From NCBI GenBank assembly GCA_000092065.1, contig CP000582.1: a stretch of DNA of 64,000 nt. The stretch is one strand, 5' to 3'. The translations under genes were made by a program, and so were the position numbers. This DNA comes from Ostreococcus lucimarinus (Eukaryota). Shown here piece by piece: positions 453 to 41,600 of this stretch; the first letter of the stretch is position 1; each line of letters starts with the position of its first letter. The notes below the pieces were generated by a model. It saw nothing but the letters and a program-made list of their open reading frames with translations. It did no database searches and was not told where the DNA came from.

Positions 453-752
453 CGCGTCGTCATCACCGCCGCGCGCTCGCGCGCGTCGCATCCGCCGCGA
501 ATCATCGCCGCCGCGCGTTCGCACCGGCCGAGAAAGTCGATTCGTGTCGCGTCCGGCGCGCGCCGCGCGCGGCGTCGCGAACGCCCGCGCGCGCGAAACC
601 GCGCGCATGGATGCGCTTCCGAGCCGTCGCGCGCGCTCTCCCGTCGCGGGCGCGCGGCGTCGCGTTCGTCGTCGGCCCTCGCCTCGCGCGTCGATGTGCG
701 TCCGGGCTCGGCCGCGCCCGCACACCGCGACGACGCGCGCCGACGACCGACC

Positions 753-2450: not shown

Positions 2451-2720
2451 TACCGACTCATTCACGTCGTTTCTTTTCGTCGCCCGTTCGTTTCGCTTCA
2501 GTAGTCGGAAGAGTCCGAGTCGTACGCGATCCGCGGCGCGAACGTCCTCGCCGACTCGTAGCGACACATCACGCGCATCTCCTGATGTTGCATCAACCGT
2601 TTCGACCAACCGTCGCGCGTCACCGTCATCGGAGGGTCGCGTCGCGGATTCGCGGCGCGGTTTACAATTCTACGACTCGTGCGCGACGGCGGGGCGTCGG
2701 CGAACGCGGCGATCGGTCGA

Positions 2721-17027: not shown

Positions 17028-18557
17028 TTAAACTTCGAGCATCATTCTACGCGGGTCTTCAACAGACTCCTTAATCGACTTCAAAAATGTCACGGCTTCG
17101 CGACCGTCGACGAGGCGATGATCGTACGTCAACGCCACGTTCATCATCGGGCGCGCGACGATGGCGCGGTCGGCACCGACGCACACCGGACGCCAGACGA
17201 TTGAATGCATGCCCAAAATGGCGCTTTGCGGCGGGTTGATGATGGGAGTGCCCGTCAACGATCCAAACACGCCGCCGTTTGAAATCGTAAAAGTACCGCC
17301 CGCCATTTCGTCGATGGACAGCGTTCCATCGCGAGCCTTCTTACCGTACGACGCGATGGAGCTTTCCACGTCGGCGAAATTCATGCCTTCGCAGCTTCTC
17401 AACACCGGTACCACCAAACCCTTGGGCGCGCTCACCGCGACGGATATGTCAACGTAGTTTCTATACACGATTTCGTCGCCGTCGATGATGGCGTTCACCG
17501 AGGGCTCTTCCTGAAGCGCCTTCGCCGCCGCCTTGACAAAGGTACTCATGAAACCTAGCTTGACGCCGTGTTTTTCTAAGAATGCATCCTTGTACTCCGC
17601 GCGCATTTGCATCACGTTCGTCATGTCGATTTCGTTGAACGTGGTGAGCATCGCGTACGTGTTTTGCGAGCTCTTCAACCGCTCCGCGACGCGCAAGCGC
17701 AAGCGCGACATGGGCACGCGCGTCTCGGCGCGAGCGCCCGACGTGACTTTCGGCGCCGCCGGCGCGGGCGATGGCGCAGCGGTCGCTTTCGGCGCTTCCT
17801 TGGCCGGCGTCGCCGCGGCCATCGCCGCGGCCGCTGGCGCGGCCGAAGCTTGTTTCTCCGGCCCCGCCCCCGGAGCGAGCGTCGCCACCTTTTGACCGAC
17901 GGAGACGGTGTCGCCCTCCTTCGCGAGCACGTCCGTCACCGTCCCGCTCGTCGACGCGCGAACGTCTATGGTGACTTTATCCGTTTCAATTTGCGCGATC
18001 ACTTCGTCCATCGCCACCTTTTGACCCGGTTTCACGAGCAAAGCCGCGACGCTCCCCTCCGTGATGGAGTCGCCCATCGAAGGCACCTCAACGCTCACCG
18101 GCGCGCCGCTCGCCGCCTCCGCCTTGGGCGCCGCCGCGCCGCCCTTCCCCCCCTTTTTCCCGCCGACGCCCGGCGCGAACGCCATCACCGCTTGCCCCAC
18201 GTTCACCGTATCCCCCACCTTCGCGTCCACGCGCGTCACCGTCCCCCCGCTCGGCGCCCGCACGTCGATCGTCACCTTGTCCGTCTCGATTTGCGCCACC
18301 GTCTCATCCGTCGCCACCTCGTCCCCGACCGCCTTCGTCACGCTCGCCACCGCGCCCTCCGAGATCGAATCCCCCATCGACGGCACCGCGATCGTCTCCT
18401 CTCGCGTCGCCGTCCCGCCCTTGTGCCTTCGAATCATCGTCATCGCGTCGAATCCTCCGTCGCCGATCATCGCGCGCGCGCGCGCCCTCGTCGTCGCGTT
18501 CGCCGTCTCCGTCTCGTTCGCGCCGTCGCGCGTCGTTCCCGTCGTCGCGCGTCCCAT
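17028..18557 (-). CDS. dihydrolipoamide succinyltransferase (E2 of 2-oxoglutarate dehydrogenase, SucB-like) with two tandem lipoyl domains
   Basis: ATG at 18557. Two lipoyl-lysine motifs are present ([13 protein letters not shown] and [13 protein letters not shown]). The catalytic domain is near-identical in pattern to SucB ([34 protein letters not shown] ... [12 protein letters not shown]). Mitochondrial-type N-terminal presequence. Confidence 0.9.
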
Positions 18558-24206: not shown

Positions 24207-25142
24207 TCATAGTTTCTCTCCGATCAACTTTTTAAGCAAAACGCGTCTTGCTCCGAGTACCCCGCCGAGTCCGTACCACCACGGATCTTCGCCACAGGCG
24301 ACGTATCCCCGGCGCTCATACATCTCGCGTGCGCGCTGATTATCGACATCAACATGAAGCCAAAGATGGGTGTATCCCCAAAGCCGCGACGCACGTTCGC
24401 ACTTCACCAACATCGAGCTCGCGACGCCTCGTCCGCGCGCGTCGGCTTTGACGGCGACGTTACTGACGTACGGAACACGTGGTTTTGTCGTCGGAAATGG
24501 CTCCGGAAATAAAGCTTCTGGTGAACACACGCGAAGGCTTGCGCTTCCTACCCAACGAGACTCATCATCGGCGACGGCTTCGTCCAGGCGCGAGATCAGC
24601 GTCAAGCACTGCGCCTTTTGTCTCGCGCGAAGCGCTCGCGCGTCGTTTTTCGCGTATTCATCGCCGAGTTTCTTCATTTCACGAATTTCACGACTCGCCT
24701 TCTTCCGTTCTTCAATCTGGTGCGTCGTCATGTGCTTCAACTCCTTCGCGATCGAGCGCGCGTACGCGTCGTCCAACATTTTCTTCACCGCCTCCGCCGC
24801 GTCGTCCAGCGCGTCGCCGCGACGCTCGGACTTTTCCTCGACTCGCGTTTCGTACGCGAACGCGTCCCCGCAGACTTTCGCCGCCGCCGCCGCGTGCGCC
24901 GCCGTCGTCGCCACGCGCACGTGCACGCGCGCGCCGCGCGCCGCGCTACCGCCCGCGTCGTCGGCGGCGCGCGTGGACGTCGGCGAAGCGTCGTCGACGT
25001 CCGGCGCGGACCGCGTCAGCACGCGCGCGCGCGTCACCGAGGACGACGCGCGGGGAGTCGAGCGGCGCGACGGCAACGACGACGACGCGCGCGCGGTGGG
25101 ACAGGACGCACGCGCGCGCAGAGCGATTACAGCGGGCGTCAT
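24207..25142 (-). CDS. GNAT-family N-acetyltransferase with N-terminal organellar transit peptide
   Basis: ORF start 25208 is TTG; the first ATG is at 25142 (MTPAVIALRARASCPTARASSSLPSRRSTPRASSS...). GNAT motif A is present in the C-terminus (YVSNVAVKADARGRGVASSMLVKCERASRLWGYTHLWLHVDVDNQRAREMYERRGYV). Confidence 0.6.
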   Translation of the reverse strand: MTPAVIALRARASCPTARASSSLPSRRSTPRASSSVTRARVLTRSAPDVDDASPTSTRAADDAGGSAARGARVHVRVATTAAHAAAAAKVCGDAFAYETRVEEKSERRGDALDDAAEAVKKMLDDAYARSIAKELKHMTTHQIEERKKASREIREMKKLGDEYAKNDARALRARQKAQCLTLISRLDEAVADDESRWVGSASLRVCSPEALFPEPFPTTKPRVPYVSNVAVKADARGRGVASSMLVKCERASRLWGYTHLWLHVDVDNQRAREMYERRGYVACGEDPWWYGLGGVLGARRVLLKKLIGEKL

Positions 25143-25357
25143 AGCTTCTCGCAGGCCGCGGACGAGTGGCGCTGGAATGATCGCATCAACCCCGCTTGAG
25201 GCAAACAAACAAGGACTGAAGGAGACAAGACTTCGCTCAGCTCAGGAGGACGTTGTAAATAAGCTCTGTGCTTGCTCTTTTTCTAATGAACGGTGAATTC
25301 GACGATGATTTCAAAGACGGTTTAACTTGAATATTTCAAGGGTGTCGTACGTGATAC

Positions 25358-27324
25358 TTAAAATCGCTCACCGAATCGAACATATGTGGAGGCCGTGCCG
25401 CTGTTGTTATCAATGCACCACTCCGCTCGCACCGGCCCCAGTTTGATACCAACACCGTGAGTTGATCCTTTACCAGCTCTTCGATAAAACTCCGTTGGGT
25501 TACCTGATAACGCTGAACTTGACGATAAGTCGGAGCATTGCTCCCAAAATAAGAAGCCGTGTGTTTTCAATACAGGAACAGGGAGGCGTATCTCAACTGC
25601 AGTCTCGAGAAGAGAGCGTGCGGCGCCAAGTTCACCCACGGTGTATCCTCTACAAGAGTGCGGGCCACCCAAAGCAAAAGCATCGTAAGCTGCGCAATTC
25701 CCAAGAATGTGACCTGCTCGAGTGTGCAAGACAACAACAGGAGGAGGAAGAGAATTTTTCTTGTTTTCTGGCAGCAACTGAACAAATCGTGTTAATTCGA
25801 CTTTGGAACGGTTGAATATCGGTCGTTTTGGCCAAAACGGAATCGACTGATCGATCTGAAATATATCTCGGGCGCCGACTTGCGTACCGTTTACAAACGT
25901 CGTCGTGTCTCTGGTGACATTACCCTGAAGGAACATGACTCGATCTGTACCTGTGTCAGATAACGTAGTTCGAGGACCATCAAGCGACAGAGAACCATTT
26001 GGGAGTTGTTTTGCGCCAGACGCACATACCGCTCCCGAATCATCACGCGTTGTCACTTCTTCTAATACCATACCAAGTGAGCACTTCGACTGCTTTGTAA
26101 AGTTCTGGCAAACCGTCGCCTTGATACCTGCTCTATCGACCCAAATGCCGGGAACATCTTGAATCAGAGGCCCTCCGGTGAAGACCGGGGACAGTTTCCG
26201 CGAATTGAAAGCCGCAGCTTTGAAAGATGTCTTATCGCTATCAGCGTCGCCTTTGCAGTACGGGTGGTTGTACTCCAGTTTGAACCCCAGATCTTCCTGT
26301 GGTTCAAGGAAGTTGGCTGTTGAAATCGACCCAAAAAGTTGACGTCCCCAGCTATCCAGATTCCTGTGTTCAAAGAACACAGAACCACCTGGACGCGCCG
26401 AAACAAGATCTGGACGACCATTTTCACCTGGTGCGATACTCCATTCAAGTTCAGTCTCCGCTGTCTTCGTTGGTCTTTCGCGAAGTAGTATATCAACTTC
26501 AATTTTGGATGGATCGCGCTCATCAGGTCTCGGTACAACTTGGACGTTGTCAAACAACTGCAGTAGGAAAATATCACGCAATGCCGTCTTCGCGTCTTCG
26601 ACGTTATAGAGTTTTCCAACTTTAAAATTATGTTCCCTCTGAATCACACGCGGATGAGTCACTCCCTTGTTGCCAGGCATTGGCTGGAGATTCTCGTCTA
26701 CAAAGACCGCTTGGACTCGTGTGATTTCTCCCTCGACGACGTGTGCTATGACCTCACCATTTTCCATTCCATCGAAGTGTGATATCGTACCGAATGTGAG
26801 GCCCTTGCTGGTGTAGTAACCCTCTACGATATTTTTTGCTGTCGCCAACACGCGGACTGTACAGTTTTGACTTTTCCGAGCAGCTTTCAAAACCTCTTGT
26901 TCGACATCTTTTGGAAGTGCAGTCGACCCAGCAACTCTAAACGATTGTACCTGCGGCCAGATCTTTTCTCGAAAAACAAACTCAACTGCGTAACCATCCT
27001 GTTTGGGCGTGACATTGGCGTCAACGTTTGCGAAGAGACCTGTGTTAAGAAGCTGTTCAAGATCATCAGAGAGATCTTTCTTCGAAAGTTCCGCGCCCTT
27101 CCGCGCATTGAGACCCTGAAATAATTCGGACTGTATTGAAAGGAGTTAGTAATAAGTTAAATATTCATGCCGCCTTCCTTACCTTCGTCGGAATACCTGG
27201 ACCGGTCGGAAGATTCGTCGCGAGGACTGATTCACAAATGAAATTATCCCTGTTCTTGGGCTTGTTTGCGGCACGGGCAGTATTTGTGGAGGATTCGTCG
27301 TCGCTGTCGTCGTCGTCATCATCT

Positions 27325-27362
<38 letters not shown>

Positions 27363-27812
27363 GTATTCAACATCGTCGTCGTCAACACTGAGCTCGCCTT
27401 CTCCACCGGAAGCTCGAGCGTCAGCGATAGGAATCGCGGTCAGAAGGTAAATGTTGCTACCACTGTGGCCACTCGAATCGTCAGAGTCCCAACCGTCACC
27501 ACTACCGTCGTTGCCATTCCCGATGCCGGAGCCATGATTTCCACTACCTCCACTTCCAACCTCTGGTTCCTCAGTCACAGAGCTGCAAGCTGTTCCTTGT
27601 TTATGTTTGCTCCTGAGGGTTACACGAAACAAAGAGCGCGACGGTGTGTTGCGCGTGGGCGAAAAAGACCAGTTGGTGCCGGAAGCTCGACGGCTAAATT
27701 TTCCACCCGATGATGCTACGCTCGACGACGCTTTATGTTTATTGTATCGGTGACTGGGCGCGGCGGACTTGATGAAAGCGGCGCGGGAAGAGACCTCCGC
27801 AAGGACGGACAT
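25358..27812 (-). CDS. TOC75: Toc75/OEP80-family (Omp85) chloroplast outer-envelope beta-barrel protein, two exons: 27812..27183 and 27130..25358, intron 27182..27131
   Basis: Exon 2 (track ORF 25358..26890, listed start is TTG) has POTRA-like segments. It carries the Omp85 barrel with LGGPHSCRGYTVGELG and the C-terminal ...VRFGERF. The frame stays open upstream to 27130 (QGLNARKGAELSKKDLSDDLEQLLNTGLF...). Minus-strand donor acgaag|GTAAGG at 27183/27182 and acceptor tttcaatacAG| at 27131 give a 52-nt intron. This joins in frame to exon 1 (track ORF 27165..27812, ATG 27812). Exon 1 encodes a Ser-rich transit peptide, a poly-Gly tract (GSGGSGNHGSGIGNGNDGSGDG, a Toc75 hallmark) and a ~30-residue poly-Asp tract. 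Confidence 0.8.
27293..27385. repeat. (GTC/GAC)n trinucleotide repeat encoding the poly-Asp tract of Toc75
   Basis: There is a perfect (tcg)~15 run at 27323-27360 and imperfect flanks. Minus-strand reading gives DDDDVEYIDDDDDDDDDDDEDDDDDDSDDE. Confidence 0.9.
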
Positions 27813-28250
27813 GTTCTATCGAAGGCCGCTGTTCTCTATCAAGCGCCAGGGTGTACTTGAATTTTTCGAGAGACTCAAAATGAACCTACTATAAGTGGCG
27901 GCAGCGGACTCAGCCGGTTGAGCACGGCGCGCGAATGACGCCGTGCGCCCTCAAGGGCGAAAGGCTTGAAGCGGAAAGGGTGTCATAATCGACATCGCGC
28001 TTTTCGTATTTAATACGCTTTGAAGACCATACTGGTACCCAAAATAAAAAACTATCATGTAGGTCTCCCCCGAAGGAATAATTTATATCAGACAGATAGA
28101 CTTTAGGCGAATGAAGACAAATTATATGCATTCTTAATCAGTTCATGTTTCGAGTTTACACATAAACTGAGGCGCGCAGCGGCACGGAGCCGTCGACAAC
28201 CGTGCGGCCGCCACTCGCGCGAGGATATCCCATGCACCACAGCTTTCTGA
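27813..28250. promoter_or_regulatory. AT-rich divergent promoter region between Toc75 (minus) and LTV1 (plus)
   Basis: 438 bp at about 42% GC between two head-to-head ATGs. Small minus-strand ORFs here (27910..28131, 28103..28375, 28143..28451) have no protein-like features. Confidence 0.3.
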
Positions 28251-29624
28251 ATGGGAGGTCGCAAGAAGACGTCGTTTGTGGATAAAAAGAGCGCGGTGAC
28301 GTACGCGTTGCTCCCTAACCACGACCGACAAGCGCACAGCCTCGGCCTTCCTAACACATGGGTCCGGACGGACAATAACCAGGGTGCGGACCCCTTCGAT
28401 GACGGCGATCACGTTGGGCGGGAACTCGAACGTGAGCTCCGAGAAAGCCATTCACAACACGTGTCCGCGGGCGATCTTTCAAATGAAAAGGACACAAACA
28501 ATAAATTGACGGCATCAGAGAAGTTGGAACTAGGACTTCCAGACGACGGCTATGATTACACTAAACACTTAAGAGAGTGCGACCCAGATAAAGTACGTAC
28601 CGTAGAAAGTGATTATGCAAATCCACGCAGTGAGATATTTACGAAAAGCATTGACCACGCAAGAACCGAGTATGCGGGCGGGGCAATGAACCAAGGCGAG
28701 TGTGATTTTCACACCTTGCACGAACAAGATAACATTGCCGACGTGTTACAACTTCTTGACGACATAAGCCAAGGCGGATCAATGGAAACCTGCGCTTACG
28801 AGGAGTTACAAGACGATATAATTTTCTTGGCTAGTCAGCGTAAAAGTGAAGAGCGGTGCTCATCGCCTTTCTTGCCCCGAAAAGTAGAGCCGTTGAGTCC
28901 GCAAACCCATCGTGCAGCCACGAAAGTATTAGTAAGAAGTTCAAGTGATGCGGTAGGGAACGAACGTTCAGACGATAGCCATTTTCTGCGTATGATCCAT
29001 AACTACGATGACGACGATCTTGGCGCTACGCCGATGAAAGATGAGAGCAATATTAGATCTGAGAACACAAAATGGCAGACTCTTGAGCAGTTGAACTTCA
29101 ACGATGGAAATTTACAAAAGCATAACGTGGATGCACGCACAGTGAAAAGTTATGCGCTCAATCATAGTGAGGAACAAACTCCACGAAATGCCTACTTAGA
29201 AGAAAGCATTCTGGACAAAAGAACTCAAGCGACCCACATGTATGACTGCGAAAGCATTTTGAGTTTGCACAGTAACTCAAACCATCATCCAAAACTTCTT
29301 GAAGGGAGACTTCTGAGTGAAGAACGTAAATTGAAAACGCCAGATCAACAGAGTGCAAGCATTCCGGGCATTCATACTTGTTTTCCTCTCGGTATGAAAG
29401 CATCATCAGAAGCTGAATTCGATTGGCGCAGCTGCACAGCTCGTAAAGGAGAAAGTGCTCAACAGAAAAAGGAGCGCAAAAATGCCGTCAAAATGGGCCG
29501 TCGACAAGCTCGAAGTACGAAAAAGGGGTTGAAAGAAAGTTTTCAATATTTCAAGCAAGCAGGAGCTGGGGGCGGTAGCTCTGGGGATGTAAGAGCAAAG
29601 ATATCTGTGACAAAAATGCAGTAG
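28251..29624 (+). CDS. LTV1: LTV1-like ribosome biogenesis factor homologue
   Basis: ATG at 28251. The N-terminus MGGRKKTSFVDKKSAVTYALLPNHDRQ matches the conserved LTV1 start (MxKKKFIDKKxAVTFxLVxRSQ). The middle is acidic and low-complexity. The C-terminus is basic (QQKKERKNAVKMGRRQARSTKKGLKESF) as in LTV1. Confidence 0.55.
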   Translation: MGGRKKTSFVDKKSAVTYALLPNHDRQAHSLGLPNTWVRTDNNQGADPFDDGDHVGRELERELRESHSQHVSAGDLSNEKDTNNKLTASEKLELGLPDDGYDYTKHLRECDPDKVRTVESDYANPRSEIFTKSIDHARTEYAGGAMNQGECDFHTLHEQDNIADVLQLLDDISQGGSMETCAYEELQDDIIFLASQRKSEERCSSPFLPRKVEPLSPQTHRAATKVLVRSSSDAVGNERSDDSHFLRMIHNYDDDDLGATPMKDESNIRSENTKWQTLEQLNFNDGNLQKHNVDARTVKSYALNHSEEQTPRNAYLEESILDKRTQATHMYDCESILSLHSNSNHHPKLLEGRLLSEERKLKTPDQQSASIPGIHTCFPLGMKASSEAEFDWRSCTARKGESAQQKKERKNAVKMGRRQARSTKKGLKESFQYFKQAGAGGGSSGDVRAKISVTKMQ

Positions 29625-29675: not shown

Positions 29676-32600
29676 TTATTTAGGTGTCATTTTCGACAAC
29701 AAATTGATCGCATCTGATAGCGCAGATTCATCAATTTTTTCTTCTATTCGCAGATCCAAGTACTTGTGTTCGATACCGAAGCATAAAGACAGCTCGTTGG
29801 AAATCCCTTCAAGCTCACTGATGACACAAATAGGAATATCAGACATGAAGTCAGGATTGACACGGAATAATGGATCACGCGATGAGTAGAGGAGCTGAGT
29901 GCAGCATAGAATACTCAATGTCTCGTTCGGGCATTCATTGACACTATTTGGATTGCTCTCTATAAATACTCTGCGCAAACTTGCGTTGACAGATGCGGAT
30001 TCGTTCTTGACTTCAGGATAAGAGGATGCAAGCAATGCCGCATAACTGAGAATTTTTCCTACATCCGAATTATTCTGTTGCGAGACGAGGACTTCATACT
30101 CTTTTGTGAATAAAGTAACCAAGCCAAGTATTTTTGGGTTCGACTGTATTGCATCACTGGCTTGCTCGCGCCAAGATGGGTCTGCGCATACATGTTGCTT
30201 TGTTTCACACAGTCTCACGAATTCTCGAGCGATATACACTCCTAAACCACGCGTGACTAGTATCACTTCATCGCCGTTGTTAATGTCTAAATAAGCGCGT
30301 ATGCGTTGCACATACATTGCGGCAAGCTCTGAGACGCTTGCTGCGGTGGAGGATTGCCAGTCCGTAGTAACGACGAAAGCTGCTGATTTTATCGACGAAG
30401 CTAGGCTGGAATAAAAACTAGTTCCACAGTCTACGTCATTGAGAAAGACGACTATGGGAGTTGTTGTATTACCATTCAATCGCGTAATAAAGCTTCGACT
30501 CACAGGTGAATTTCTATGCTTCCATTGCGGGAGTCGGTATCTCAAAGTAGCTGCAATGCGCTGAGATTGCTCAGATAGGTTACCTGGAGAAGCTGCATCT
30601 TTCCAGGCATTGGCCAGAGTCGGATTTATGAAACAATGCGACAGAATATTAGGGTCTGCGGCACCTTTTCCTCCCGGTTCGATGGGCTCAAACATTTTCG
30701 CATTATTATAAGAATAAGGATTTGTCATGTTCGTGCAAGAGGGCAATTTTAGAAAGTCGCATATTTTGTCGATATGCGACGTAGGATCAGAAACTAGGTC
30801 TTCGTAACAAATTTCCAATTGTCGAGTACTTTCTACATTGCGCAGAAAATCAATGATGTTGGAATTTCCTCGTGCCCATAATTTATCCATATGGCTCCAG
30901 ATCTGCTCGATGGTGGATGCAGATAGAAGCTCCAAACGTTTGCGGCCATTTAATTGTAGCAACTTCTCATTTTCAAGGATATCATGCCTTGATTTGAAAG
31001 TTTCTTTTGACATGGAGTGGATCGTTGCGTACGGATGCCTGTGTATGAATATATAGTACACATCTTCAAATATTGATTCGGCTCGTTCCAAAGTGTCCAA
31101 AGACCACGAATAAGGTGGCGACTTGTCCACTAGAATCCGATCGCCACACCAATTTTGAAGGACTTCATAGACATTCTTTGTTGACATGGAATGCATGTCG
31201 TGCATTATTTTATCAGCTTCATCGGCGAAACAGCCGCGAAGTTCTACAATAGCTTTACGCAAACCTTCAAACGCCCACGAGTGTCCACGAGATATTGACT
31301 CAAACCTTTGGTACATCGTCTCAAAATTTAGCAAGTAAAGTTCTTGAGGTGCAAAAATTGATGGATGAGAGTTTAGTATCATCTGCAAAAGAGTTGAACC
31401 AGACCTCGGCGACGACAACACGAATAGTATCTTTCCCTTCACCTTTGGCTCGTGGAGCCGTAATCGGGGCATCCATGAATTCGAATCTGTTAGTGGCGTA
31501 TACTTTTTAACTTGCGACTCTATCCACAAACAAATGCGCTCACCGGCACTTAATCCTACTGAGAATGTTTCGCGTGTGACCACTTTGATTGCGGCGTCAA
31601 CACTCGCTGCGATCCCTTTGATAGTATTCTCTCTGAATTCGCCAGACCCACAGTGGCTGAATCCAATATCTCGCAGTACATTGTGCAAAGGCTCTGACAT
31701 TGACAGTGGATGTCGGCGTCGACATGGCTCGTTTCTGCTAAGTGAGCTGTGTAACTCGTTCCAAATACATTTTTGTAGTTGGAAGGTCAACCGATTTGCG
31801 TCAACATGAGTATTCTGGTTAGCGGCGTTGCATCTGGTAAGTAGAACGTTTTGTCTGTGGCGAGGTTCTTGAAAAGCCCGGCAATCGCGGCGCACATTTG
31901 TGAGCACGTGTGCCATACTACCGCCATAACCAAAAGAGCTCGTGCCGATTATACCTCCGCTAGTGGGCCCTTTTAGCATAGGAAAGTGTGATCGCTTGTC
32001 CAAATTTACATCTCTCCATGTGTGTCCCATCTTCTCTGCGGTTGTGCACGCATGTTGCCCTAGTAGTAGATTGTTCAATTTTCTAAAATGAACCAATGGT
32101 GATGTCAATAAAGCGTGACTCATGAGGGCAGACTTGATCAGTGAAATCATACCAGATGCACCATCGAGGTGCCCTAAATTGGTATGTAAACTACCAAATC
32201 CTATGTTTGAAGTGCGAGATGGGTCTTCAAAACAGAATATACGCTGGTATGCACCGATTTCTATTGCGTCGCCAAGTGGCTCACCTAGTCCAGATGCTTC
32301 TACGAATGCAACGTCTGCTGGTAGTATGTTAGCATCAAGCAGTGCACGGTGCACTTTGTACTCAATTGCCGGTCCTCGAAGCGCTCTGAGCGAAGCGCCG
32401 CCGCCTTTATGTATACACGAGGACCCCAGGAGCGTGACAAGCATAAATTTGCTACTGGTGGCTTTGTATGTACAGATCATGACTGCACCGACGCCTTCAC
32501 CTCGCTCAAATCCGTCCGCTTGAGCATCAAATGTTTTGCATCGACCATCAGCTGGAAACATCTGACGTGCAATATGTAAATCTGATAATTGTCTGTGAAG

Positions 32601-35600
32601 TATGATATTCGAACTCGCCGCTATGGAGGAGTTAGCATATTCAGGATCTGATGGCACATTCACTTTAGAAGAACTCGTAGCGAGATGAATACAAACTAAT
32701 CCTGACGCAGACGCGCAGTCGATAGAGATAGATTCGCCTTGAAACCCAAATGTGTGACTTATTCGATTCGACGCAAAAGCATACGTCGATTCGGACATAC
32801 CATGCGCAATATTTGATAGCTTATCGTGGGCAGAGCAGCCTGAATCTGTGAACATCACACGGAACGCTTCGTCCCTTGCCACAGAATCACTGTCATTCGT
32901 ACATATACCTACGTATACTGATATTTTTTGCTCGTAAACGCGCGTACTCTTGTCTGAATATGGTACATCGGTAACTTCATGGCACGCTTTCAGCAACTCG
33001 CGCTGTTGCGGTTCAAGAAGTGATCGAACATCAGATCGGCCAATTCCAAAAAAGTTTGAGTCGAAAACGTCAAGCTGTCTTAGGAACGAGCCGTGCCTAC
33101 TATATTCGTGATAGACAAAATCCCGCTTTCTACTAATACCGGTGAAAGAAAATATACGTTCAACATCCCAGCGATCTATGGGGATCTTCCTAATTGCATC
33201 TATACCGTTTGCGATTGCGCCACAAAATTGTACCGGATGCATGATATGTTTGCAATCTGCGTCACCCGTGTGCACTGCGATACATGCCACCGAGCTTATG
33301 ATACCATCCTGAACGACGATACGCATGGGCTCTTTGGCAGATGGTTTGCAATCATCTATTTTTTGCCGAAGAGTCGTCTTATGGATAAATTTTGATAACG
33401 ATGTGATTGTTGGATGGTCAAACGCAACTGTTGACGGCAATGGTACGTCAAAGCATATTTCTATGGAACGGGATAGCTCCGTGAGATACATGCTGTCTAA
33501 TCCAGCGTCTATGAATGGCATATTAGCGTCAATAGTGTGTCCGAGAACCCGGCGAACATGATCAGACACAAGGGATTGTGTCTCTGATAACGTGCTGGGA
33601 TGTGTACGATCTGTACACAATAACGTTCGCTTTGAATCCGTTGAAACACCTTGCGACAGTAACGGGATGGACAATTTATCCCAAAGAAACATGTTTGCCA
33701 CTATGGTCGCATCTTGTATCATAACGCTGTTCAAAATCGACAGTATATGTATCCCAACCTTTGTGGGCACTGACCCAATACCAAATCGAGTCAGACTGTC
33801 AAGCTGCAATGCGCTTTGCTTCATCATTCCTGTCAAGTTTACCCACGCTCCCCATTGAACACTAACTTTATCGAGACCTTGATGGTGTGCGTAGTTGCAA
33901 TGTGCATCTAACGAAGAATTGGCAGCGACATAGTTCACTTGCCCAAACGTTCCTAGCAGCACAGAGATCGAGGAGTAATAATCAGTTTGAACTGATAACG
34001 AAGTCGGATCGCGAATACTCGCTAGAGATCCGATTAGTTTCGGAGACACGACGACACGAATCGTATAGGCTGTCTGTTTCGTCGCGATAGCGTCACGAAG
34101 AACACCGGATGCAAAGAATGAACGATTAACTTGAACTCGAGAATTGTGCCATGTATTGTCTGAGTAGTGGCAGTTATCAACGGAATCAACAGTTACTGAA
34201 TGGGATGAGGATCCGTTCCAAACGACAACAGAGTATGAACATCGACCACTTCGGTTCGTCAAGCGAATCAATCGCTGTCCATTCAGCAGTGCTGTGATGT
34301 ACACAAGTTTACCAATTTCACCAGCACCGTGTACTTCTGTTTGATTATTTTTACATTGATTGTTGCGACGCATGTTAGCCGGCGATGAATGAGTCGAACA
34401 TAGATTCGGCGTAAACGCAAGATGACCAACGGCACTGACGTGGCGAAGACGCGCTGTGGTGTTTGAGATACCCGACGGATGTATGCGAGCTGAATCTCCC
34501 GTACATACGGCATATGTTGTATTTTTATTTTCGACACAAAACACTCTTGGTAGTGTCGATAGTGTCAGGTCGGATATATGTTTATGTATACTCGATATTG
34601 GCGATGGAAATATGCGTTTTGTGACGGGTGCTGATTTGCTGAGTACACATAGGTGCTTAGATTCGCTCGAAGTTGTGAGCGCACAAATTGAATGCAAAAT
34701 ATTCACAACGGTTGGCAGTGATCCGCATCTGTGGACGCTGCGGCGGTAGTTGCACAATGTATGCCGAACAGTAGTTGTAGCACAAGTGTCGCCATTGGGT
34801 GCAACATTAACTCGAAGCGGGCTCGCCTCCCAGCGAAGAGCATACAAATATTCAACATTTGGAACACTTGAGCGAGATGAAGACGGCGATGTGGATGTGC
34901 ACAATACAGAGTCAGTTGAAATGTGCAAGAACACCTCTGGTGTAAACGTTGACCAATTTTGACGTGAATAATTGTACTTGAACCTGTGATCACTCAGTAT
35001 AATGCAACACATGAGCGTGTCGTGTTGCGCATATTGAACGGTACATGAACGTCGATATAGCTCAACAGTCCGTACATACGCGACGGAGTTACCGCCGGTG
35101 AACGTATCGAGCAAAGTACATCGCAAACGATGTTGAGGCTTTTCATGGTATTCATTGGATTCAACATGAATATCTGCAGAAGACAAGCCGCCATGCATTT
35201 CGCGAAATTTAACAAACCCTTGTTCTGCATCAGCGTATGCTGCCACTGTGTTCGCATTTAACCCGACGCCGTGTTCACCAGCTCGCACAGTAGCATGTGT
35301 GCTAGCGATAGCGTTGGATTGAGCATCAATTACTTTATATCCCGACCCGTACACGAGAACTTTATTTGATTTTAGATATGCATCTAAAACTTTCGAGGCA
35401 TACACAGTTGAAAGTACTACATTTTTTAGTGAGAGTTCTGTGGTACGATCATCCAAAATCAAACATGTGGCATCAGATGCAACTTGCAACGGTGATGAAG
35501 TAAGAGCATTTACGGTAGCGTTGAAGCGAATCGAAACACAAGCCATAGTGAGTGTCGATAAAGCGACTGTTGCACGCGAGCTTAGCTGTGATATCCAACA

Positions 35601-38600
35601 CTCGATGCTGTGTTGCATGACAGAAGCATCTGGCAAGTATTTCATCACGTAATCGCGTCGAACAGATACGTGTGCGTTCGTTCCTTGAAATGCAAACGCG
35701 CTCACTCCTCGGTTTACGGCGTGTGCATCACATTGCCACGCACTTTGCGTTGCCTGGCGTGGAAGAGCGATTCCGCATCGCTCAGCCGTATCTTGATTCA
35801 GAATACTCTGAATGTGGGTGCTGAGCTGGCATAGGTGCACGAGCGCAGGAGTGTTCAAGCGAAATATGCAATCAACAATGCCACACAGACCCATACCGCC
35901 CGAAGCTGGCTCGGTGTGTCCGCAGCGAGTCTTCATTGCTGAAAAAGTAACGACTGGCAATCTTTTGAGGCTGCTAAGTACGGTGCGCGCTGCGCCAACT
36001 TCTATAGGATCCCCCAGAGACGTGCCAGTACCATGAAGCTCTATACCACCAGAAGAGCTGTTATCATTACCAGACTGGAGCATGGTGTGCAAAATCACGC
36101 TCTGCTGCGATGGGCCATGGGGGGCTGTGAGAGAGCTTGAGCGTCCATCTTGGTTGACAGAAGATGCAGAAGCGTAAAACATGCAGTAGTCGTCGCGCAC
36201 GCCGTCGCTGTGCGGTGTCAAGAGCAGCAAAGTTGATCCTTCTCCTCGAACGTAGCCGTTTGCAGCCATGTCCAGAGTCTTACATCGCCCATCATCTGCC
36301 AGCATCCCCGCAGTTCTAAAAACAATAGTCGTCGTCGGGTTCAGGGTGATGTTCACGCCGCAACATATCATGCTGTCGCATTCTCCCGTGAGCACTGCGT
36401 TACGCGCTACATGTGATCCAACTAAAGACGACGAGCACGCTGTGTCGATGCTTGCACACGTTCCGCGCAGATTGTATGTGAAAGAAATCCGTCCACACGC
36501 AACACTGAGTGAGCCACCAGTTGCTTGAAGCTTGCCGGCACGAGAGGTGATCGCGCTGTAATCAGTGCTAGATATACCGACAACAACGCCACATCCCTCG
36601 CTATATTGGCCGTTTACTGCATGTGCGCGCCCATCTAAGGCGCGCGCTAGAAGGATGCGCTGCTGTGGGTCCACGGCAGTAGCTTCTGCACGTCGCATTG
36701 AAAACAGGGCAATATCAAAATATTCAATGTTATGGAGAAATCTACCAAACCGTATCAGGGCGTAATCGTCGGCTCTAATATCCCACCGATTTTCAGGCAC
36801 ACCACTTACGTCATCCAGTGCGTGCTGATACTGCCCGGGGCTGCTGACTGATGATATGCACACTTGAGCTGAGTATGTGACATCAATAGTACTATTACGG
36901 AGCACCTGTGCACTTCCGTAATTCGATTTTCCATGCGACAGTTCACCCGCCACGGCTTCTGCAAGTGCATATACGCTAGGATGATCAAATACAACCGTCG
37001 ACGGGAGCTGCACAGCGAATTCATCGTTCAGTCTGCTTCGCAATTCAACGGCGCCGAGTGAGTCAAGACCCGCATCCAACAGTGGCTCCTTTGCATCCAA
37101 TGGTCTACCAACCGCATCATTCACTATACTCGCTACACGTCCCGCAATTTCGTCGCCGTGGATCACGCATGATGGTACGCCACGTTCTCCGGCTGATATC
37201 TTGATCTTGAGTTGTGTGCTATTTTGATCGACGTATGGTGCATTTGGCGGGGAAACCGCACTGTGTGATGTAGGTACACTCCATGCATGTAAGCCGGTTG
37301 CACGCAGTGGGCAAACGGCGTAGATTGAGAACATATTTGGAGGTTGAATGAGAGTGCGTAGCGTTCTCAGCGCAGTGTGTGGGTCAATCACTTCTATCCC
37401 TAGAGATCCAAAGTTTCTGGGTGTACCCACTGCAGAACGCACAGCCATGCCATAGGATCCACCCCAGGGTCCCCACTGGAGACTCATGCACCGCCATCCC
37501 ATCGTCGTGCCGAGTTGAGCGAGTGTGTCGAGCAGTGCGTTAGCACCTGCATAGTTAGTTTGACCCGGCGAGCCGAGCAATGCAGCTATGGACGAGAAGA
37601 AAACATGTGTCAAAGACATTTGAGGGAGATTTTCATGACACACCGCTTGTGCACCTTGTGTTTTGTTTGCAAACGCAATCGAGACTGTGGAAAACGTTTG
37701 CTTCATTAGGATTGAATCTTTGAGAACACCGCTCATGTGCAATACCCGACCGACATTTCGCACACTACACGAAACCAAGCGTTCTGTTTCGCTTCTGACA
37801 CAAAGGTTTACACGTTGGATGGTAAGCAGGGATGTAAATTTTGCCGGCGCGATATGTTTTCCTCTTCCGGAACGCCCCACGAGTACGAAGGGTCTATCAC
37901 AGATGGATGCATTCCATTCATAGATAAGCGCTCCGATGCCACCGACACCACCGGTGTAAATGTCGCTGCACGGGTGTAGAAGCGCATTAGAGTCGCACTG
38001 TGCGATGTGCTTTGCCATCGCTCGACGTGGGTCTCGCCACAACATTTTTGCGTGTAAATTCGGACAGACCTTCGATAACGTCGGCGTGCGGACATGGCGA
38101 TTCGATATTGATTTGGCATGCACCTCGTTCGAATCAGAATTTGAATGAAGAAAGTCGGTTGCTTTTGCGTGCACAATACTTGATGCGCCCAAATCAACGC
38201 ACACTAAACGCTGTGACATCTCATGTGCGCCACTCCTGAAGATACCCCACATGGCACCAGCGACCGGAATACATCGACCGATAGAGCTCTGCGTGTCAGC
38301 ACATAGGCGTGGACAGGCTGACACCAGCTCTGTTGCTGTCGTGCGAATCACGCATAGATTGGAACTTGCATGTAAACTCTGCACGGCAAGAGAAGCCACG
38401 CGTGATGCACTTTGCCTCCCCGCAGCTAAATGCGAGTATACGTTCGTGACACCTTCTGTACGGAGAAGCGGTCCTCTGTATGTGTTCTCGGTTTTCCACG
38501 TGGCGCGATATATCATATCGATGGCGTGTCTTCCTTGCCTCCCACCATAATAGCGCTCTGATCCCATCGCTGCAGGCTCTGAGTGAGACGCAACCTTTTT

Positions 38601-41600
38601 GCCCAGTAGTTCGTGCATCGCAAGTTGATTTTCCGTCGCTTGCTGTGCTATATGGTCACTCTGCATCTTTTGCGGCGAGAAGCGTGATAGTGCGTGGTCT
38701 CGGGACCGTGCCAACGAAGTTTGGTGTGTGCAGATTTCGAGACTCACTGGCAAGTGCAATTCAAAGCTATCATCACTGAAAGTATTTAGCCTGAGAGCTG
38801 ATAAGCTCTGCACGTGCGCATCGAGCTCTGCGGCAAACGACTGATCTAGTGTTTGCACCTTTTTACTATGAACTTTGAAGTGCAAATCAAGGCTGGATTT
38901 GGAGACGTTTGCGTAATACACTTTCGGCGATGGAGTTCGTTGCGTGAGCATGGTCTGCACTACTTTACAAGACGTGTGCCCTGCTCGTTGTGACGATACG
39001 GAAATACTGCCGGTAGTTTGCGATATTTTGAACGATAATGCATCGTTGCGCCAAGTATCCAACAAACAGGCAGCATGTATTTGCGTGCGACGCACCACGT
39101 TAACAGTCATTGTGTGGAGTTGCTTTACACAAGTGAGGGTCAGCTCCAGAAAGCTGGTAGCGGGGAGAACCAAGCGGCCACGAACGCAGTGATCGCGATC
39201 TATATGTCGTGTTTTTAATGGTGGGAGTTGAATCCGTAGGCATTCGCTCGTCTCGACTGCGTGCACGAGCCGCAGGCCAAAGGCAGCATGTGATATCCAA
39301 CACTCGATGCTGTGTTGCATGACAGAAGCATCTGGCAAGTATTTCATCACGTAATCGCGTCGAACAGATACGTGTGCGTTCGTTCCTTGAAATGCAAACG
39401 CGCTCACTCCTCGGTTTACGGCGTGTGCATCACATTGCCACGCACTTTGCGTTGCCTGGCGTGGAAGAGCGATTCCGCATCGCTCAGCCGTATCTTGATT
39501 CAGAATACTCTGAATGTGGGTGCTGAGCTGGCATAGGTGCACGAGCGCAGGAGTGTTCAAGCGAAATATGCAATCAACAATGCCACACAGACCCATACCG
39601 CCCGAAGCTGGCTCGGTGTGTCCGCAGCGAGTCTTCATTGCTGAAAAAGTAACGACTGGCAATCTTTTGAGGCTGCTAAGTACGGTGCGCGCTGCGCCAA
39701 CTTCTATAGGATCCCCCAGAGACGTGCCAGTACCATGAAGCTCTATACCACCAGAAGAGCTGTTATCATTACCAGACTGGAGCATGGTGTGCAAAATCAC
39801 GCTCTGCTGCGATGGGCCATGGGGGGCTGTGAGAGAGCTTGAGCGTCCATCTTGGTTGACAGAAGATGCAGAAGCGTAAAACATGCAGTAGTCGTCGCGC
39901 ACGCCGTCGCTGTGCGGTGTCAAGAGCAGCAACGTTGATCCTTCTCCTCGAACGTAGCCGTTTGCAGCCATGTCCAGAGTCTTACATCGCCCATCATCTG
40001 CCAGCATCCCCGCAGTTCTAAAAACAATAGTCGTCGTCGGGTTCAGGGTGATGTTCACGCCGCAACATATCATGCTGTCGCATTCTCCCGTGAGCACTGC
40101 GTTACGCGCTACATGTGATCCAACTAAAGACGACGAGCACGCTGTGTCGATGCTTGCACACGTTCCGCGCAGATTGTATGTGAAAGAAATCCGTCCACAC
40201 GCAACACTGAGTGAGCCACCAGTTGCTTGAAGCTTGCCGGCACGAGAGGTGATCGCGCTGTAATCAGTGCTAGATATACCGACAACAACGCCACATCCCT
40301 CGCTATATTGGCCGTTTACTGCATGTGCGCGCCCATCTAAGGCGCGCGCTAGAAGGATGCGCTGCTGTGGGTCCACGGCAGTAGCTTCTGCACGTCGCAT
40401 TGAAAACAGGGCAATATCAAAATATTCAATGTTATGGAGAAATCTACCAAACCGTATCAGGGCGTAATCGTCGGCTCTAATATCCCACCGATTTTCAGGC
40501 ACACCACTTACGTCATCCAGTGCGTGCTGATACTGCCCGGGGCTGCTGACTGATGATATGCACACTTGAGCTGAGTACGTGACATCAATAGTACTATTAC
40601 GGAGCACCTGTGCACTTCCGTAATTCGATTTTCCATGCGACAGTTCACCCGCCACGGCTTCTGCAAGTGCATATACGCTAGGATGATCAAATACAACCGT
40701 CGACGGGAGCTGCACAGCGAATTCATCGTTCAGTCTGCTTCGCAATTCAACGGCGCCGAGTGAGTCAAGACCCGCATCCAACAGTGGCTCCTTTGCATCC
40801 AATGGTCTACCAACCGCATCATTCACTATACTCGCTACACGTCCCGCAATTTCGTCGCCGTGGATCACGCATGATGGTACGCCACGTTCTCCGGCTGATA
40901 TCTTGATCTTGAGTTGTGTGCTATTTTGATCGACGTATGGTGCATTTGGCGGGGAAACCGCACTGTGTGATGTAGATACACTCCATGCATGTAAGCCGGT
41001 TGCACGCAGTGGGCAAACGGCGTAGATTGAGAACATATTTGGAGGTTGAATGAGAGTGCGTAGCGTTCTCAGCGCAGTGTGTGGGTCAATCACTTCTATC
41101 CCTAGAGATCCAAAGTTTCTGGGTGTACCCACTGCAGAACGCACAGCCATGCCATAGGATCCACCCCAGGGTCCCCACTGGAGACTCATGCACCGCCATC
41201 CCATCGTCGTGCCGAGTTGAGCGAGTGTGTCGAGCAGTGCGTTAGCACCTGCATAGTTAGTTTGACCCGGCGAGCCGAGCAATGCAGCTATGGACGAGAA
41301 GAAAACATGTGTCAAAGACATTTGAGGGAGATTTTCATGACACACCGCTTGTGCACCTTGTGTTTTGTTTGCAAACGCAATCGAGACTGTGGAAAACGTT
41401 TGCTTCATTAGGATTGAATCTTTGAGAACACCGCTCATGTGCAATACCCGACCGACATTTCGCACACTACACGAAACCAAGCGTTCTGTTTCGCTTCTGA
41501 CACAAAGGTTTACACGTTGGATGGTAAGCAGGGATGTAAATTTTGCCGGCGCGATATGTTTTCCTCTTCCGGAACGCCCCACGAGTACGAAGGGTCTATC

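What the first reader, a model, noticed from the sequence alone, without database searches (positions are those of the whole stretch)
25358..27812. Toc75 gene with a 52-nt intron, poly-Gly tract and an unusually long poly-Asp tract
Exon 1 and exon 2 join through a minimal GT-AG intron (gtaagg...caatacag). The N-terminal region has the polyglycine stretch characteristic of Toc75 targeting sequences. This is followed by about 30 consecutive acidic residues encoded by a (GAC)n microsatellite, a slippage-prone, potentially length-polymorphic tract inside an essential import-channel gene.
Basis: partly seen in the sequence, partly recalled or inferred. Interest (0 to 1): 0.5.

Follow-up and report, generated by a model that had tools for sequence, protein, structure and literature searches.

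The report
Ostreococcus Toc75 gene, correctly read
This is the ordinary chloroplast import-channel gene (Toc75) of the tiny marine green alga Ostreococcus lucimarinus; its short intron and its variable aspartate repeat are both real, but both are normal for this group of algae.

Summary
On the minus strand, exon 1 (27812..27183), a 52-nt GT-AG intron (27182..27131) and exon 2 (27130..25358) encode an 800-aa protein. Six environmental transcript-like contigs, about 99.8% identical to the window, lack exactly those 52 nt. Two DNA-like contigs keep them.

The protein is Toc75, not OEP80:
- It is 48-62% identical to Toc75 of distant green lineages and 22-24% identical to 120 OEP80 proteins.
- It has the Toc75-specific four-residue deletion in turn T7.
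- Its best solved relative is Chlamydomonas Toc75.

The C-terminal 519 aa equal the GenBank "predicted protein, partial" of Ostreococcus lucimarinus CCE9901, so the public model is truncated.

Two details were overstated:
- There is no polyglycine. A Gly/Ser-rich segment (13 Gly in 35 residues, longest run GG) sits where relatives have it.
- The acidic run is 18 consecutive residues (D11-E-D6), not about 30.

The (GAC)11 repeat is polymorphic. A (GAC)10 allele, linked to K653E, occurs in six environmental contigs. An acidic linker at this position is conserved across relatives, and Micromonas-like ones have 28-30 consecutive acidic residues. The intron is ancient and typical of the low-GC "BOC1" region, whose edge this gene occupies. 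Interest is low.

The parts
27813..27926 (-). 5' UTR (at least 114 nt), with no upstream ATG and an in-frame TAG two codons before the start
   Evidence: Five of the six transcript-like contigs begin at 27916-27926 and L001 begins at 27821.
27183..27812 (-). Exon 1 coding part, residues 1-210. The whole N-terminal extension is here, plus the first beta-strand of POTRA1.
27573..27812 (-). Residues 1-80: transit-peptide-like segment (25 Ser/Thr, 14 Lys/Arg, 1 acidic residue)
   Evidence: Composition, coordinates. The function is inferred from the bipartite Toc75 presequence described in PMC4195282 and PMC5147994.
27456..27560 (-). Residues 85-119: Gly/Ser-rich segment (13 Gly in 35, longest run GG), the positional counterpart of the Toc75 polyglycine stretch
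   Evidence: Relatives have G5-G10 runs here.
27411..27455 (-). Residues 120-134, NIYLLTAIPIADARA: a short hydrophobic segment ending in overlapping Ala-x-Ala motifs. This is the candidate type I signal peptidase (Plsp1) site.
   Evidence: Aligned motifs LPAYA, PPAYA, PPAHA, QPAFA and QPALA in relatives. The importance of Ala at -3 and -1 is from PMC2171254. Cleavage here is inferred, not shown.
27294..27383 (-). Residues 144-173: acidic tract DDDDVEYIDDDDDDDDDDDEDDDDDDSDDE
27327..27359 (-). Perfect (GAC)11 microsatellite (residues 152-162), present as (GAC)10 in environmental alleles
   Evidence: The TRF array is 27295..27360.
27131..27182 (-). Intron: 52 nt, phase 0, GT-AG, 34.6% GC, with TACTAAC placing the putative branch A 15 nt from the 3' end
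   Evidence: The position is conserved in four relatives.
25358..27130 (-). Exon 2 coding part, residues 211-800 plus the TAA stop
26477..27245 (-). Three POTRA domains, residues about 190-428 (the range spans the intron)
   Evidence: Pfam hits at 211-266, 274-345 and 378-428. Beta-alpha-alpha-beta-beta elements in the model.
25361..26467 (-). Omp85-type beta-barrel, residues about 432-800, ending in RFGERF
   Evidence: Pfam PF01103 at 488-797, model, Foldseek to Chlamydomonas Toc75 7vcf_B, alignment.
25160..25357 (-). 3' UTR (up to about 198 nt), running over the start of the next ORF (24207..25208, GNAT acetyltransferase)
   Evidence: Transcript-like contigs L003-L006 end at 25160-25270; L001 ends at 25309.

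Best explanation
The locus is the single two-exon gene for Toc75, the beta-barrel protein-import channel of the chloroplast outer envelope, in Ostreococcus lucimarinus (CCE9901 or a near-identical strain).

Shown:
- A transcript of roughly 2.7 kb starts near 27926.
- A 52-nt phase-0 GT-AG intron is removed. It is short, AT-rich and of the kind typical of the low-GC 'BOC1' part of the big outlier chromosome.
- An 800-aa precursor is made.

Inferred from the land-plant Toc75 pathway and from positional homology:
- Residues 1 to about 80 act as a stromal-type transit peptide.
- The Gly/Ser-rich segment (85-119) plays the role of the polyglycine 'rejection' signal that keeps the protein at the envelope.
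- A type I signal peptidase cuts after the Ala-x-Ala motif at about residue 132-134.
- The mature protein therefore begins with a disordered, strongly acidic linker (residues about 135-176) in the intermembrane space. Three POTRA domains and a 16-stranded barrel follow.

The acidic linker is conserved in charge but not in sequence across Mamiellales and other prasinophytes. In O. lucimarinus part of it has been taken over by a (GAC)n microsatellite. This repeat gains and loses units in frame by replication slippage, giving 10- and 11-unit alleles, apparently without cost.
For: Gene structure:
- Splicing at 27183|27130 gives one ORF of 800 aa.
- P0001 is an exact 800-aa match found in an environmental contig.
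- Six contigs (L001-L006), about 99.8% identical to the window, lack exactly the intron, and five share 5' ends at 27916-27926.
- DNA-like contigs L014 and L015 are collinear with the window and keep the intron.
- The 5' UTR has no ATG and has an in-frame stop.

Identity:
- Pfam finds Omp85 plus three POTRA hits, including the Toc75-specific models.
- TIGR00992 (IAP75) scores 554 bits.
- PDB phmmer finds 7vcf_B, Chlamydomonas Toc75, at E = 1e-92 over residues 155-800.
- Foldseek of the model finds 7vcf_B at E = 1e-50; the best BamA scores 1e-25.
- BLASTP gives 592-802 bits against Toc75 proteins and at most 153 bits against 120 OEP80 proteins.
- The T7 turn is 4 residues shorter than in OEP80, as published for Toc75 (PMC4195282).

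Organism:
- Residues 282-800 are identical to XP_001416377.1 of O. lucimarinus CCE9901.

Intron:
- Its position is conserved in relatives, with introns of 54, 49, 64 and 192 nt.
- It meets the published BOC1-intron definition of under 75 nt and under 43% GC (PMC3879977).
- The flanking giant PKS is a BOC1 hallmark (bioRxiv 10.1101/2025.04.21.649811).

Tract:
- (GAC)11 with K653 occurs in the window and L001. (GAC)10 with E653 occurs in L002-L006 and L015.
- Relatives have 21-31 acidic residues in a 32-residue window at the same place.
- Residues 1-187 have pLDDT below 50.
Against: - No direct evidence here for transit-peptide function, the cleavage site, the topology of the acidic linker or its role. 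All are inferred by analogy with pea and Arabidopsis Toc75.
- The sample types of the intron-less contigs were not available. Their RNA origin is inferred from the missing intron and the shared ends.
- TIGR00992 scores below its very high curated cut-off (554 against 1163 bits).
- The Ala-x-Ala motif before the acidic tract is clear in Micromonas-like, Bathycoccus-like and Cymbomonas proteins, but only loosely kept in the closest Ostreococcus relatives.
Confidence: 0.93

Rival explanations
1. The acidic tract belongs to the cleaved envelope-sorting presequence and is absent from mature Toc75. Plsp1 would then cut after a second Ala-x-Ala motif (A179-R-A181) just upstream of POTRA1.
For: An A-R-A motif lies at residues 179-181, nine residues before the first POTRA1 strand. 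The whole region 1-187 is predicted to be unstructured.
Against: That downstream motif is absent from O. tauri, Micromonas-like, Bathycoccus-like and Cymbomonas orthologues. A P-A-x-A motif directly before the acidic tract recurs in most of them. In pea the cleavage site lies about 21 residues after the polyGly (residues 91-110, mature protein from 132; PMC5147994). This matches the upstream site here.
Confidence: 0.2
2. The 10- versus 11-unit difference is an assembly or sequencing artefact in a low-complexity region, not a real polymorphism.
For: Short-read assemblers can collapse microsatellites, and only single-unit variation is seen.
Against: The 33-nt repeat is shorter than a read. (GAC)10 is found in six independent contigs from different samples, and always with the linked substitution K653E about 1.5 kb away. 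(GAC)11 goes with K653 in the window and L001.
Confidence: 0.07
3. The intron-less contigs are genomic DNA of strains that have lost the intron (a presence/absence polymorphism), not spliced RNA.
Against: Five of the six contigs start within 11 nt of each other (27916-27926). All six stop at the gene's ends instead of running into the neighbours. The (GAC)10/E653 haplotype occurs both with the intron (L015) and without it (L002-L006). The intron position is kept in all four relatives examined.
Confidence: 0.03
4. The gene is the paralogue OEP80 (Toc75-V) or another Omp85 protein, not the import channel Toc75.
For: Both families share POTRA domains and the Omp85 barrel. IMG labels some fragments 'BamA'.
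Against: Identity to 120 OEP80 proteins is 22-24% (at most 153 bits), against 48-62% (592-802 bits) to Toc75. The protein has the Toc75-type T7 deletion, Toc75-type insertions and the RFGERF end. Chlamydomonas Toc75 is the best sequence and fold match. In the precomputed domain lists none of the 120 OEP80 hits carries PF25280 and only one carries PF25282.
Confidence: 0.01
5. Only the downstream ORF is the gene, as in the 519-aa GenBank partial model or the 469-510-aa gene calls, and exon 1 is a separate or non-coding ORF.
For: GenBank XP_001416377.1 is partial, and prokaryote-style gene callers start inside exon 2.
Against: Transcripts span both exons in one frame. Exon 1 supplies the first strand of POTRA1 and the conserved NFICESVLATNLPTGPGIPTK motif, which is contiguous with exon 2 in the O. 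tauri and MMETSP proteins.
Confidence: 0.01

Closest known systems
Toc75 (Toc75-III) of land plants (pea psToc75, Arabidopsis At3g46740) and Chlamydomonas Toc75 (PDB 7VCF, 7XZI)
   Same: Three POTRA domains plus an Omp85 barrel, the short T7 turn, an N-terminal extension with a Gly-rich part followed by Ala-x-Ala, and the C-terminal RFGERF.
   Different: No tri-glycine or longer run. A long acidic linker lies between the presumed cleavage site and POTRA1. The loop-6 motif reads SCRGY instead of SVRGY.
Ostreococcus tauri XP_003074813.1 ('Surface antigen variable number', 824 aa), the annotated full-length orthologue
   Same: 88.6% identity over residues 180-800. The same N-terminal architecture and the same exon-junction sequence GIPTK|SELFQGL.
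   Different: Its acidic linker is a mixed D/E/Y sequence without a homopolymer, and its Gly-rich part has runs up to G4.
GenBank XP_001416377.1 / ABO94670.1, 'predicted protein, partial' of O. lucimarinus CCE9901
   Same: Identical to residues 282-800 of the protein encoded here.
   Different: It lacks residues 1-281, that is exon 1, the intron and the start of exon 2. It therefore misses the presequence, the repeat, POTRA1 and the start of POTRA2.
BOC1 introns of Mamiellales (short AT-rich introns of the low-GC region of the big outlier chromosome)
   Same: 52 nt and 34.6% GC, lying in a low-GC block next to the giant PKS. It fits the published definition of under 75 nt and under 43% GC (PMC3879977) and the 40-65-bp class of Ostreococcus chromosome 2 (PMC2367439).
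   Different: The literature describes these introns as lacking a recognisable branch-point motif. This one and its three short orthologues all carry CTAAC with the putative branch A 12-24 nt from the 3' end. A composition-preserving shuffle gives a joint probability of about 1e-5.
OEP80 (Toc75-V)
   Same: POTRA domains plus an Omp85 barrel in the chloroplast outer envelope.
   Different: Only 22-24% identity, a longer T7 turn, no Gly-rich presequence and a different C-terminus (PMC4195282).

Membership tests
Toc75 (IAP75 family, TC 3.A.9) | C-terminal Omp85-type beta-barrel | tested here: met
   PF01103 at E = 1.2e-16 over residues 488-797. The model shows a run of beta-strands from 432 to 796. 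Foldseek finds 7vcf_B at E = 1.4e-50.
Toc75 (IAP75 family, TC 3.A.9) | Three N-terminal POTRA domains of the Toc75 type | tested here: met
   PF07244 (211-266), PF25280 POTRA2_Toc75 (274-345) and PF25282 POTRA1_3_Toc75 (378-428), all above their cut-offs. Three beta-alpha-alpha-beta-beta units appear in the model. PDB POTRA structures of Arabidopsis and pea Toc75 match at E of about 1e-21 to 1e-22.
Toc75 (IAP75 family, TC 3.A.9) | Closer to Toc75 than to the paralogue OEP80 | tested here: met
   592-802 bits and 48-62% identity to Toc75 of Chara, Chlorokybus, Mesostigma and Cymbomonas. At most 153 bits and 22-24% identity to 120 OEP80 proteins.
Toc75 (IAP75 family, TC 3.A.9) | Turn T7 between strands 14 and 15 four residues shorter than in OEP80 and cyanobacterial Omp85 (PMC4195282) | tested here: met
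   The alignment shows GIK----L-GPVRAEW against OEP80 GVRVDSPL-GPLRLEY.
Toc75 (IAP75 family, TC 3.A.9) | Curated family model TIGR00992 at or above its trusted cut-off | tested here: not met
   554 bits, E = 4e-166, model positions 201-718, against a cut-off of 1163 bits. This is still the best NCBIfam hit by over 500 bits. I read the miss as reflecting the model's very high cut-off; I did not examine which sequences the model was built from.
Toc75 (IAP75 family, TC 3.A.9) | Bipartite cleavable presequence containing a polyglycine stretch | tested here: inconclusive
   An N-terminal extension of about 190 residues is present, with a transit-peptide-like start and a Gly-rich segment in the right place. 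No Gly run exceeds two residues. Relatives have G5-G10 runs.
Toc75 (IAP75 family, TC 3.A.9) | Ala at -3 and -1 of the second (Plsp1) cleavage site | tested here: inconclusive
   A130-D-A132 and A132-R-A134 lie 11-15 residues after the Gly-rich segment. The rule is from PMC2171254. Actual cleavage cannot be tested here.
Toc75 (IAP75 family, TC 3.A.9) | Location in the chloroplast outer envelope, association with Toc34/Toc159, and preprotein conductance | not testable with these tools
   This needs biochemistry or localisation experiments.
BOC1 introns (Mamiellales) | Shorter than 75 nt and below 43% GC (PMC3879977) | tested here: met
   52 nt and 34.6% GC, against 54.8% and 48.5% in the two exons.
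BOC1 introns (Mamiellales) | Located in the low-GC BOC1 region of the big outlier chromosome | tested here: met
   Window GC falls from about 0.61 to about 0.45 at 25-28 kb. The low-GC side holds a giant type I PKS, a described BOC1 hallmark. The GenBank protein maps to an 895-kb contig. That this contig is chromosome 2 is not shown here; the literature names chromosome 2 as the intron-rich one.
OEP80 (Toc75-V) | Higher similarity to OEP80 than to Toc75, with the long T7 turn | tested here: not met

The most novel reading that the evidence does not exclude
In Ostreococcus lucimarinus the Toc75 envelope-sorting signal has lost every tri-glycine, which is the element reported as critical in pea. 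Sorting, or retention in the intermembrane space, may instead rely on a flexible Gly/Ser/Asn segment together with the adjacent poly-Asp linker. If that linker stays on the mature channel, it could also act as an 'acid-chain'-like electrostatic site for basic transit peptides on the intermembrane-space side. Natural 10- and 11-unit alleles would then offer a ready-made length series.
Probability: 0.1. Interest if true: 0.45.

Novelty: already known. Interest (0 to 1): 0.15.

Why it matters
Mostly as housekeeping.
- It shows that the public O. lucimarinus Toc75 model (XP_001416377.1, 519 aa, partial) lacks its first 281 residues, and it supplies the full 800-aa structure with transcript support.
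- It documents a conserved acidic, disordered linker between the Toc75 presequence and POTRA1 in prasinophytes. My two Toc75 text searches turned up no paper that discusses it.
- It shows that polyglycine can degenerate to a Gly/Ser-rich segment in a functional lineage.
- It gives one clear case of a BOC1-type intron that is ancient and keeps a CTAAC branch-site-like motif.

None of this changes how Toc75 or Mamiellales genomes are understood.

Tried and rejected
- A search with a neighbouring gene, the E2 succinyltransferase at 17028..18557, was meant to name the organism. It gave only unnamed environmental top hits. Cluster look-ups then gave O. tauri at 77% but not the species. The species came from looking up clusters of the Toc75 hits themselves.
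- I first took the low-GC half of the window for generic BOC1 sequence rich in small introns. It is in fact one uninterrupted PKS ORF. The BOC1 assignment now rests on the literature statement that giant PKS genes are a BOC1 hallmark.
- NCBIfam TIGR00992 did not reach its cut-off, so it was not used as proof of membership.
- PubMed id 17460045 (the O. lucimarinus genome paper) is not held.
- The literature search for an acidic region in algal Toc75 found nothing specific.
- The OEP80 probe for one search was typed from my memory of Arabidopsis OEP80. It served only to fish out real database entries, with which it proved 98% identical. All comparisons used those database proteins, not the probe.
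- The single representative-library HMMER search was not run, because that library carries no names and would not have separated Toc75 from OEP80.
Full report
**What is in the sequence**

The feature lies on the minus strand.
- An ATG at 27812 opens a 630-nt exon.
- At 27182 the sequence GTAAGG begins a 52-nt stretch ending in ATACAG at 27131.
- Reading resumes at 27130 in the same frame and runs to a TAA at 25360..25358.
- Spliced, this is one 2403-nt ORF of 800 aa.
- Unspliced, a stop follows five codons into the intron, and 52 is not a multiple of three.
- The intron is 34.6% GC, against 54.8% for exon 1 and 48.5% for exon 2.

**Is the splice real?**

The spliced 800-aa protein has an exact match (P0001) in the protein collection. 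There are also two 799-aa near-matches, P0002 and P0003.

The six contigs that encode these proteins (L001-L006, from six JGI samples, 2.4-2.9 kb) are about 99.8% identical to the window. Each aligns in two blocks, 27926..27183 and 27132..25160 at most. They therefore lack exactly the 52 nt; the 2-nt overlap is the AG shared by the exon end and the intron end.

Five of the six start within 11 nt of each other (27916-27926). None runs into the neighbouring genes. This is the behaviour of transcripts, not of genomic contigs.

Two other environmental contigs (L014, L015) are collinear with the window across the junction. L015 carries the same 52-nt intron base for base.

The 114-nt leader has no ATG and has an in-frame TAG two codons before the start. 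The model, including its start codon, is well supported.

**What the protein is**

- Pfam finds the Omp85 barrel (PF01103) and three POTRA hits. Two of these are the Toc75-specific models PF25280 and PF25282.
- Against solved structures, the best sequence match is Toc75 of the Chlamydomonas TOC-TIC supercomplex (7vcf_B, E = 1e-92, residues 155-800). The POTRA crystal structures of Arabidopsis and pea Toc75 come next.
- An AlphaFold model built on 22 homologues is confident from residue 190 onward. It shows three beta-alpha-alpha-beta-beta units and a barrel.
- Foldseek puts Chlamydomonas Toc75 at E = 1e-50, about 25 orders of magnitude ahead of any BamA.

I fished real OEP80 proteins from the database and compared them.
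- The window protein scores at most 153 bits (22-24% identity) against all 120 of them.
- It scores 592-802 bits (48-62% identity) against Toc75 of Chara, Chlorokybus, Mesostigma and Cymbomonas.
- In an alignment it shares the Toc75 state of a published diagnostic character: turn T7 is four residues shorter than in OEP80 (PMC4195282).
- It also shares the Toc75 insertions and the RFGERF C-terminus.

It is Toc75. The one membership item not met is the trusted cut-off of TIGR00992 (554 against 1163 bits). I read this as a property of that very high cut-off, not as evidence against membership.

**Organism and annotation status**

Residues 282-800 are identical to XP_001416377.1/ABO94670.1, [quoted passage not shown], on an 895-kb contig. 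The window therefore comes from O. lucimarinus CCE9901 or a near-identical strain.

The public model is truncated. It lacks exon 1, the intron and the first 71 residues of exon 2. The O. tauri orthologue (XP_003074813.1, 824 aa, 88.6% identical) is annotated full-length with the same junction sequence.

**The intron in context**

In genomic contigs of four relatives there is an intron at exactly the same place, phase 0 between GIPTK and SELF.

| Locus | Toc75 identity to this protein | Intron length |
|---|---|---|
| L007 | 88% | 54 nt |
| L010 | 85% | 64 nt |
| L008 | 77% | 49 nt |
| L012 | 63% | 192 nt, 67% GC |

L012 comes from a GC-rich genome. The RefSeq model of Micromonas commoda uses the same acceptor position. 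The intron is therefore old, not a recent gain.

The window's GC content drops from about 0.61 to about 0.45 between 25 and 28 kb. The low-GC side is occupied by one uninterrupted ORF of at least 11,429 codons (29676..63965, minus strand). It encodes a multimodular type I polyketide synthase with a condensation domain.

Giant PKS genes are a described hallmark of the low-GC BOC1 region of the Mamiellales big outlier chromosome (bioRxiv 10.1101/2025.04.21.649811). Chromosome 2 of Ostreococcus is known for 40-65-bp introns (PMC2367439). BOC1 introns are defined as under 75 nt and under 43% GC (PMC3879977). This intron fits all of these, so it is not "minimal" in any special sense.

One small departure from the literature: BOC1 introns are said to lack a branch-point motif. 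This intron has a perfect TACTAAC, and all three short orthologous introns have CTAAC, with the putative branch A 12-24 nt from the 3' end. Composition-preserving shuffles give 0.03-0.08 per intron, or about 1e-5 jointly if the introns are independent.

**The N-terminal extension**

- Residues 1-80 look like a chloroplast transit peptide: 25 Ser/Thr, 14 Lys/Arg and one acidic residue.
- Residues 85-119 are Gly/Ser/Asn/Asp-rich (13 Gly in 35), but no Gly run exceeds two residues.
- Relatives carry true runs in the same position: G10 in a Micromonas-like protein, G7 in Cymbomonas, G8 in L012, G5 in the 88% relative, G4 in O. tauri.

This is mildly notable, because in pea a tri-glycine within the stretch is reported to be critical for sorting (title of Baldwin and Inoue 2006, cited in PMC4195282).

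Next comes a short hydrophobic segment ending in A-D-A-R-A (residues 120-134). Relatives show LPAYA, PPAYA, PPAHA, QPAFA or QPALA there. In land plants, Ala at -3 and -1 marks the second cleavage site, which is cut by the type I signal peptidase Plsp1 (PMC2171254). I infer cleavage at about residue 132-134. This is not shown.

**The acidic tract**

The sequence is DDDDVEYI-D11-E-D6-S-DDE. The longest acidic run is 18 residues, with 26 acidic residues in the densest 32-residue window. It is not about 30 consecutive.

At the DNA level there is a perfect (GAC)11 at 27327..27359, inside a 66-nt period-3 array. This is the longest such array in the window.

It is polymorphic.
- The window and L001 have (GAC)11 together with Lys653.
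- L002-L006 and the DNA contig L015 have (GAC)10 together with Glu653.
- One contig (L006) also has D164A.

The linkage to a substitution about 1.5 kb away, across six contigs, argues for real haplotypes and against assembly error.

The tract is not unusual for the clade. Every Mamiellales relative examined has 21-31 acidic residues in 32 at the same position, and Micromonas-like proteins have 28-30 consecutive. Cymbomonas (16) and the more distant L012 (12) have a weaker version. What is specific to O. lucimarinus is that the region became a GAC homopolymer. The closest relatives use mixed GAC, GAT, GAA and GAG codons and have no (GAC)n longer than 2.

The region is predicted to be unstructured, with pLDDT below 50 for residues 1-187.

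The simplest reading is a charge-constrained, sequence-unconstrained disordered linker in which slippage is tolerated. If cleavage occurs at about residue 133, the linker sits at the N-terminus of the mature channel, in the intermembrane space next to POTRA1. Whether it does anything there, such as attracting basic transit peptides, is speculation. The main rival is that it is removed with the presequence at a second A-x-A motif at 179-181. That motif is not conserved in relatives.

**Verdict**

The finding is real and was read essentially correctly, but it is ordinary. It is a known, essential gene family in a sequenced alga. Its intron belongs to a described class, and its coding microsatellite sits in a conserved low-complexity linker.

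The useful by-products are a corrected full-length gene model and a documented two-allele repeat polymorphism. Two small observations may merit a note elsewhere: the loss of tri-glycine, and the conserved CTAAC motif in BOC1-type introns.

Noticed in passing
window 29676..63965 (minus strand): One uninterrupted ORF of at least 11,429 codons running off the window end. It is a giant multimodular type I polyketide synthase (repeated KS, KR, DH and ACP domains) with one NRPS-type condensation domain. It fills the whole low-GC half of the window and has no introns within 34 kb.
   Followed up: partly
window about 25000..28500: Sharp compositional boundary, with GC about 0.61 on the left (1-25 kb) and about 0.45 on the right. 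The Toc75 gene (0.48-0.55) is the first gene on the low-GC side, so it sits at the edge of the presumed BOC1 region. The neighbouring GNAT gene (24207..25208) is already GC-rich.
   Followed up: partly
window 25358..26917 compared with GenBank XP_001416377.1: The public O. lucimarinus model for this gene is a 519-aa 'partial' protein starting at residue 282. The full gene is 800 aa with one intron.
   Followed up: yes
P0081 (Micromonas commoda XP_002504526.1) compared with P0018 (MMETSP transcript): The RefSeq model of the M. commoda orthologue jumps from the Gly-rich segment straight to AELFGGLN. It omits the acidic tract and the first POTRA1 strand (NFIVESVLATNLP.GPGIPTK), both of which are present in the transcript-derived protein. 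This is probably a mis-placed donor site in the annotation.
   Followed up: partly
introns: window 27131..27182; L007 9794..9847; L008 9934..9982; L010 3041..3104: All four short orthologous introns carry CTAAC, with the putative branch A 12-24 nt from the 3' splice site (TACTAAC in the window). The literature describes BOC1 introns as having no recognisable branch-point motif.
   Followed up: partly
L015 nt 1..640 (upstream of window position 28055): In an environmental strain that is 99.4% identical across the gene, the 640 nt upstream of the Toc75 promoter region have no match anywhere in the window. This is a strain-level structural difference in the intergenic region towards the divergent neighbouring gene.
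   Followed up: no
L002 nt 2536..2908: The 3' end of this transcript-like contig repeats window 25920..25548 at 97.6% identity, directly after the 3' UTR. It is likely an assembly chimera between two alleles.
   Followed up: no
window 28251..29624 (plus strand): A 457-aa ORF divergent from Toc75, low in GC and with no Pfam match. A minus-strand ORF of unknown function (321 aa) sits in the same position, between the PKS and Toc75, in the 88% relative L007. Local gene order therefore looks conserved.
   Followed up: no
window 25160..25208: The Toc75 3' UTR, as defined by the transcript-like contigs, overlaps the first codons of the mechanically listed downstream ORF (GNAT acetyltransferase, TTG start at 25208). 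That gene's real start is therefore probably further downstream.
   Followed up: no
protein residues about 701-705 (window about 25646..25660): The conserved loop-6 motif SVRGY of Omp85 proteins reads SCRGY here, in O. tauri and in the Micromonas-like orthologue shown in the alignment. The consensus of the 22-homologue alignment reads HSCRGY.
   Followed up: no
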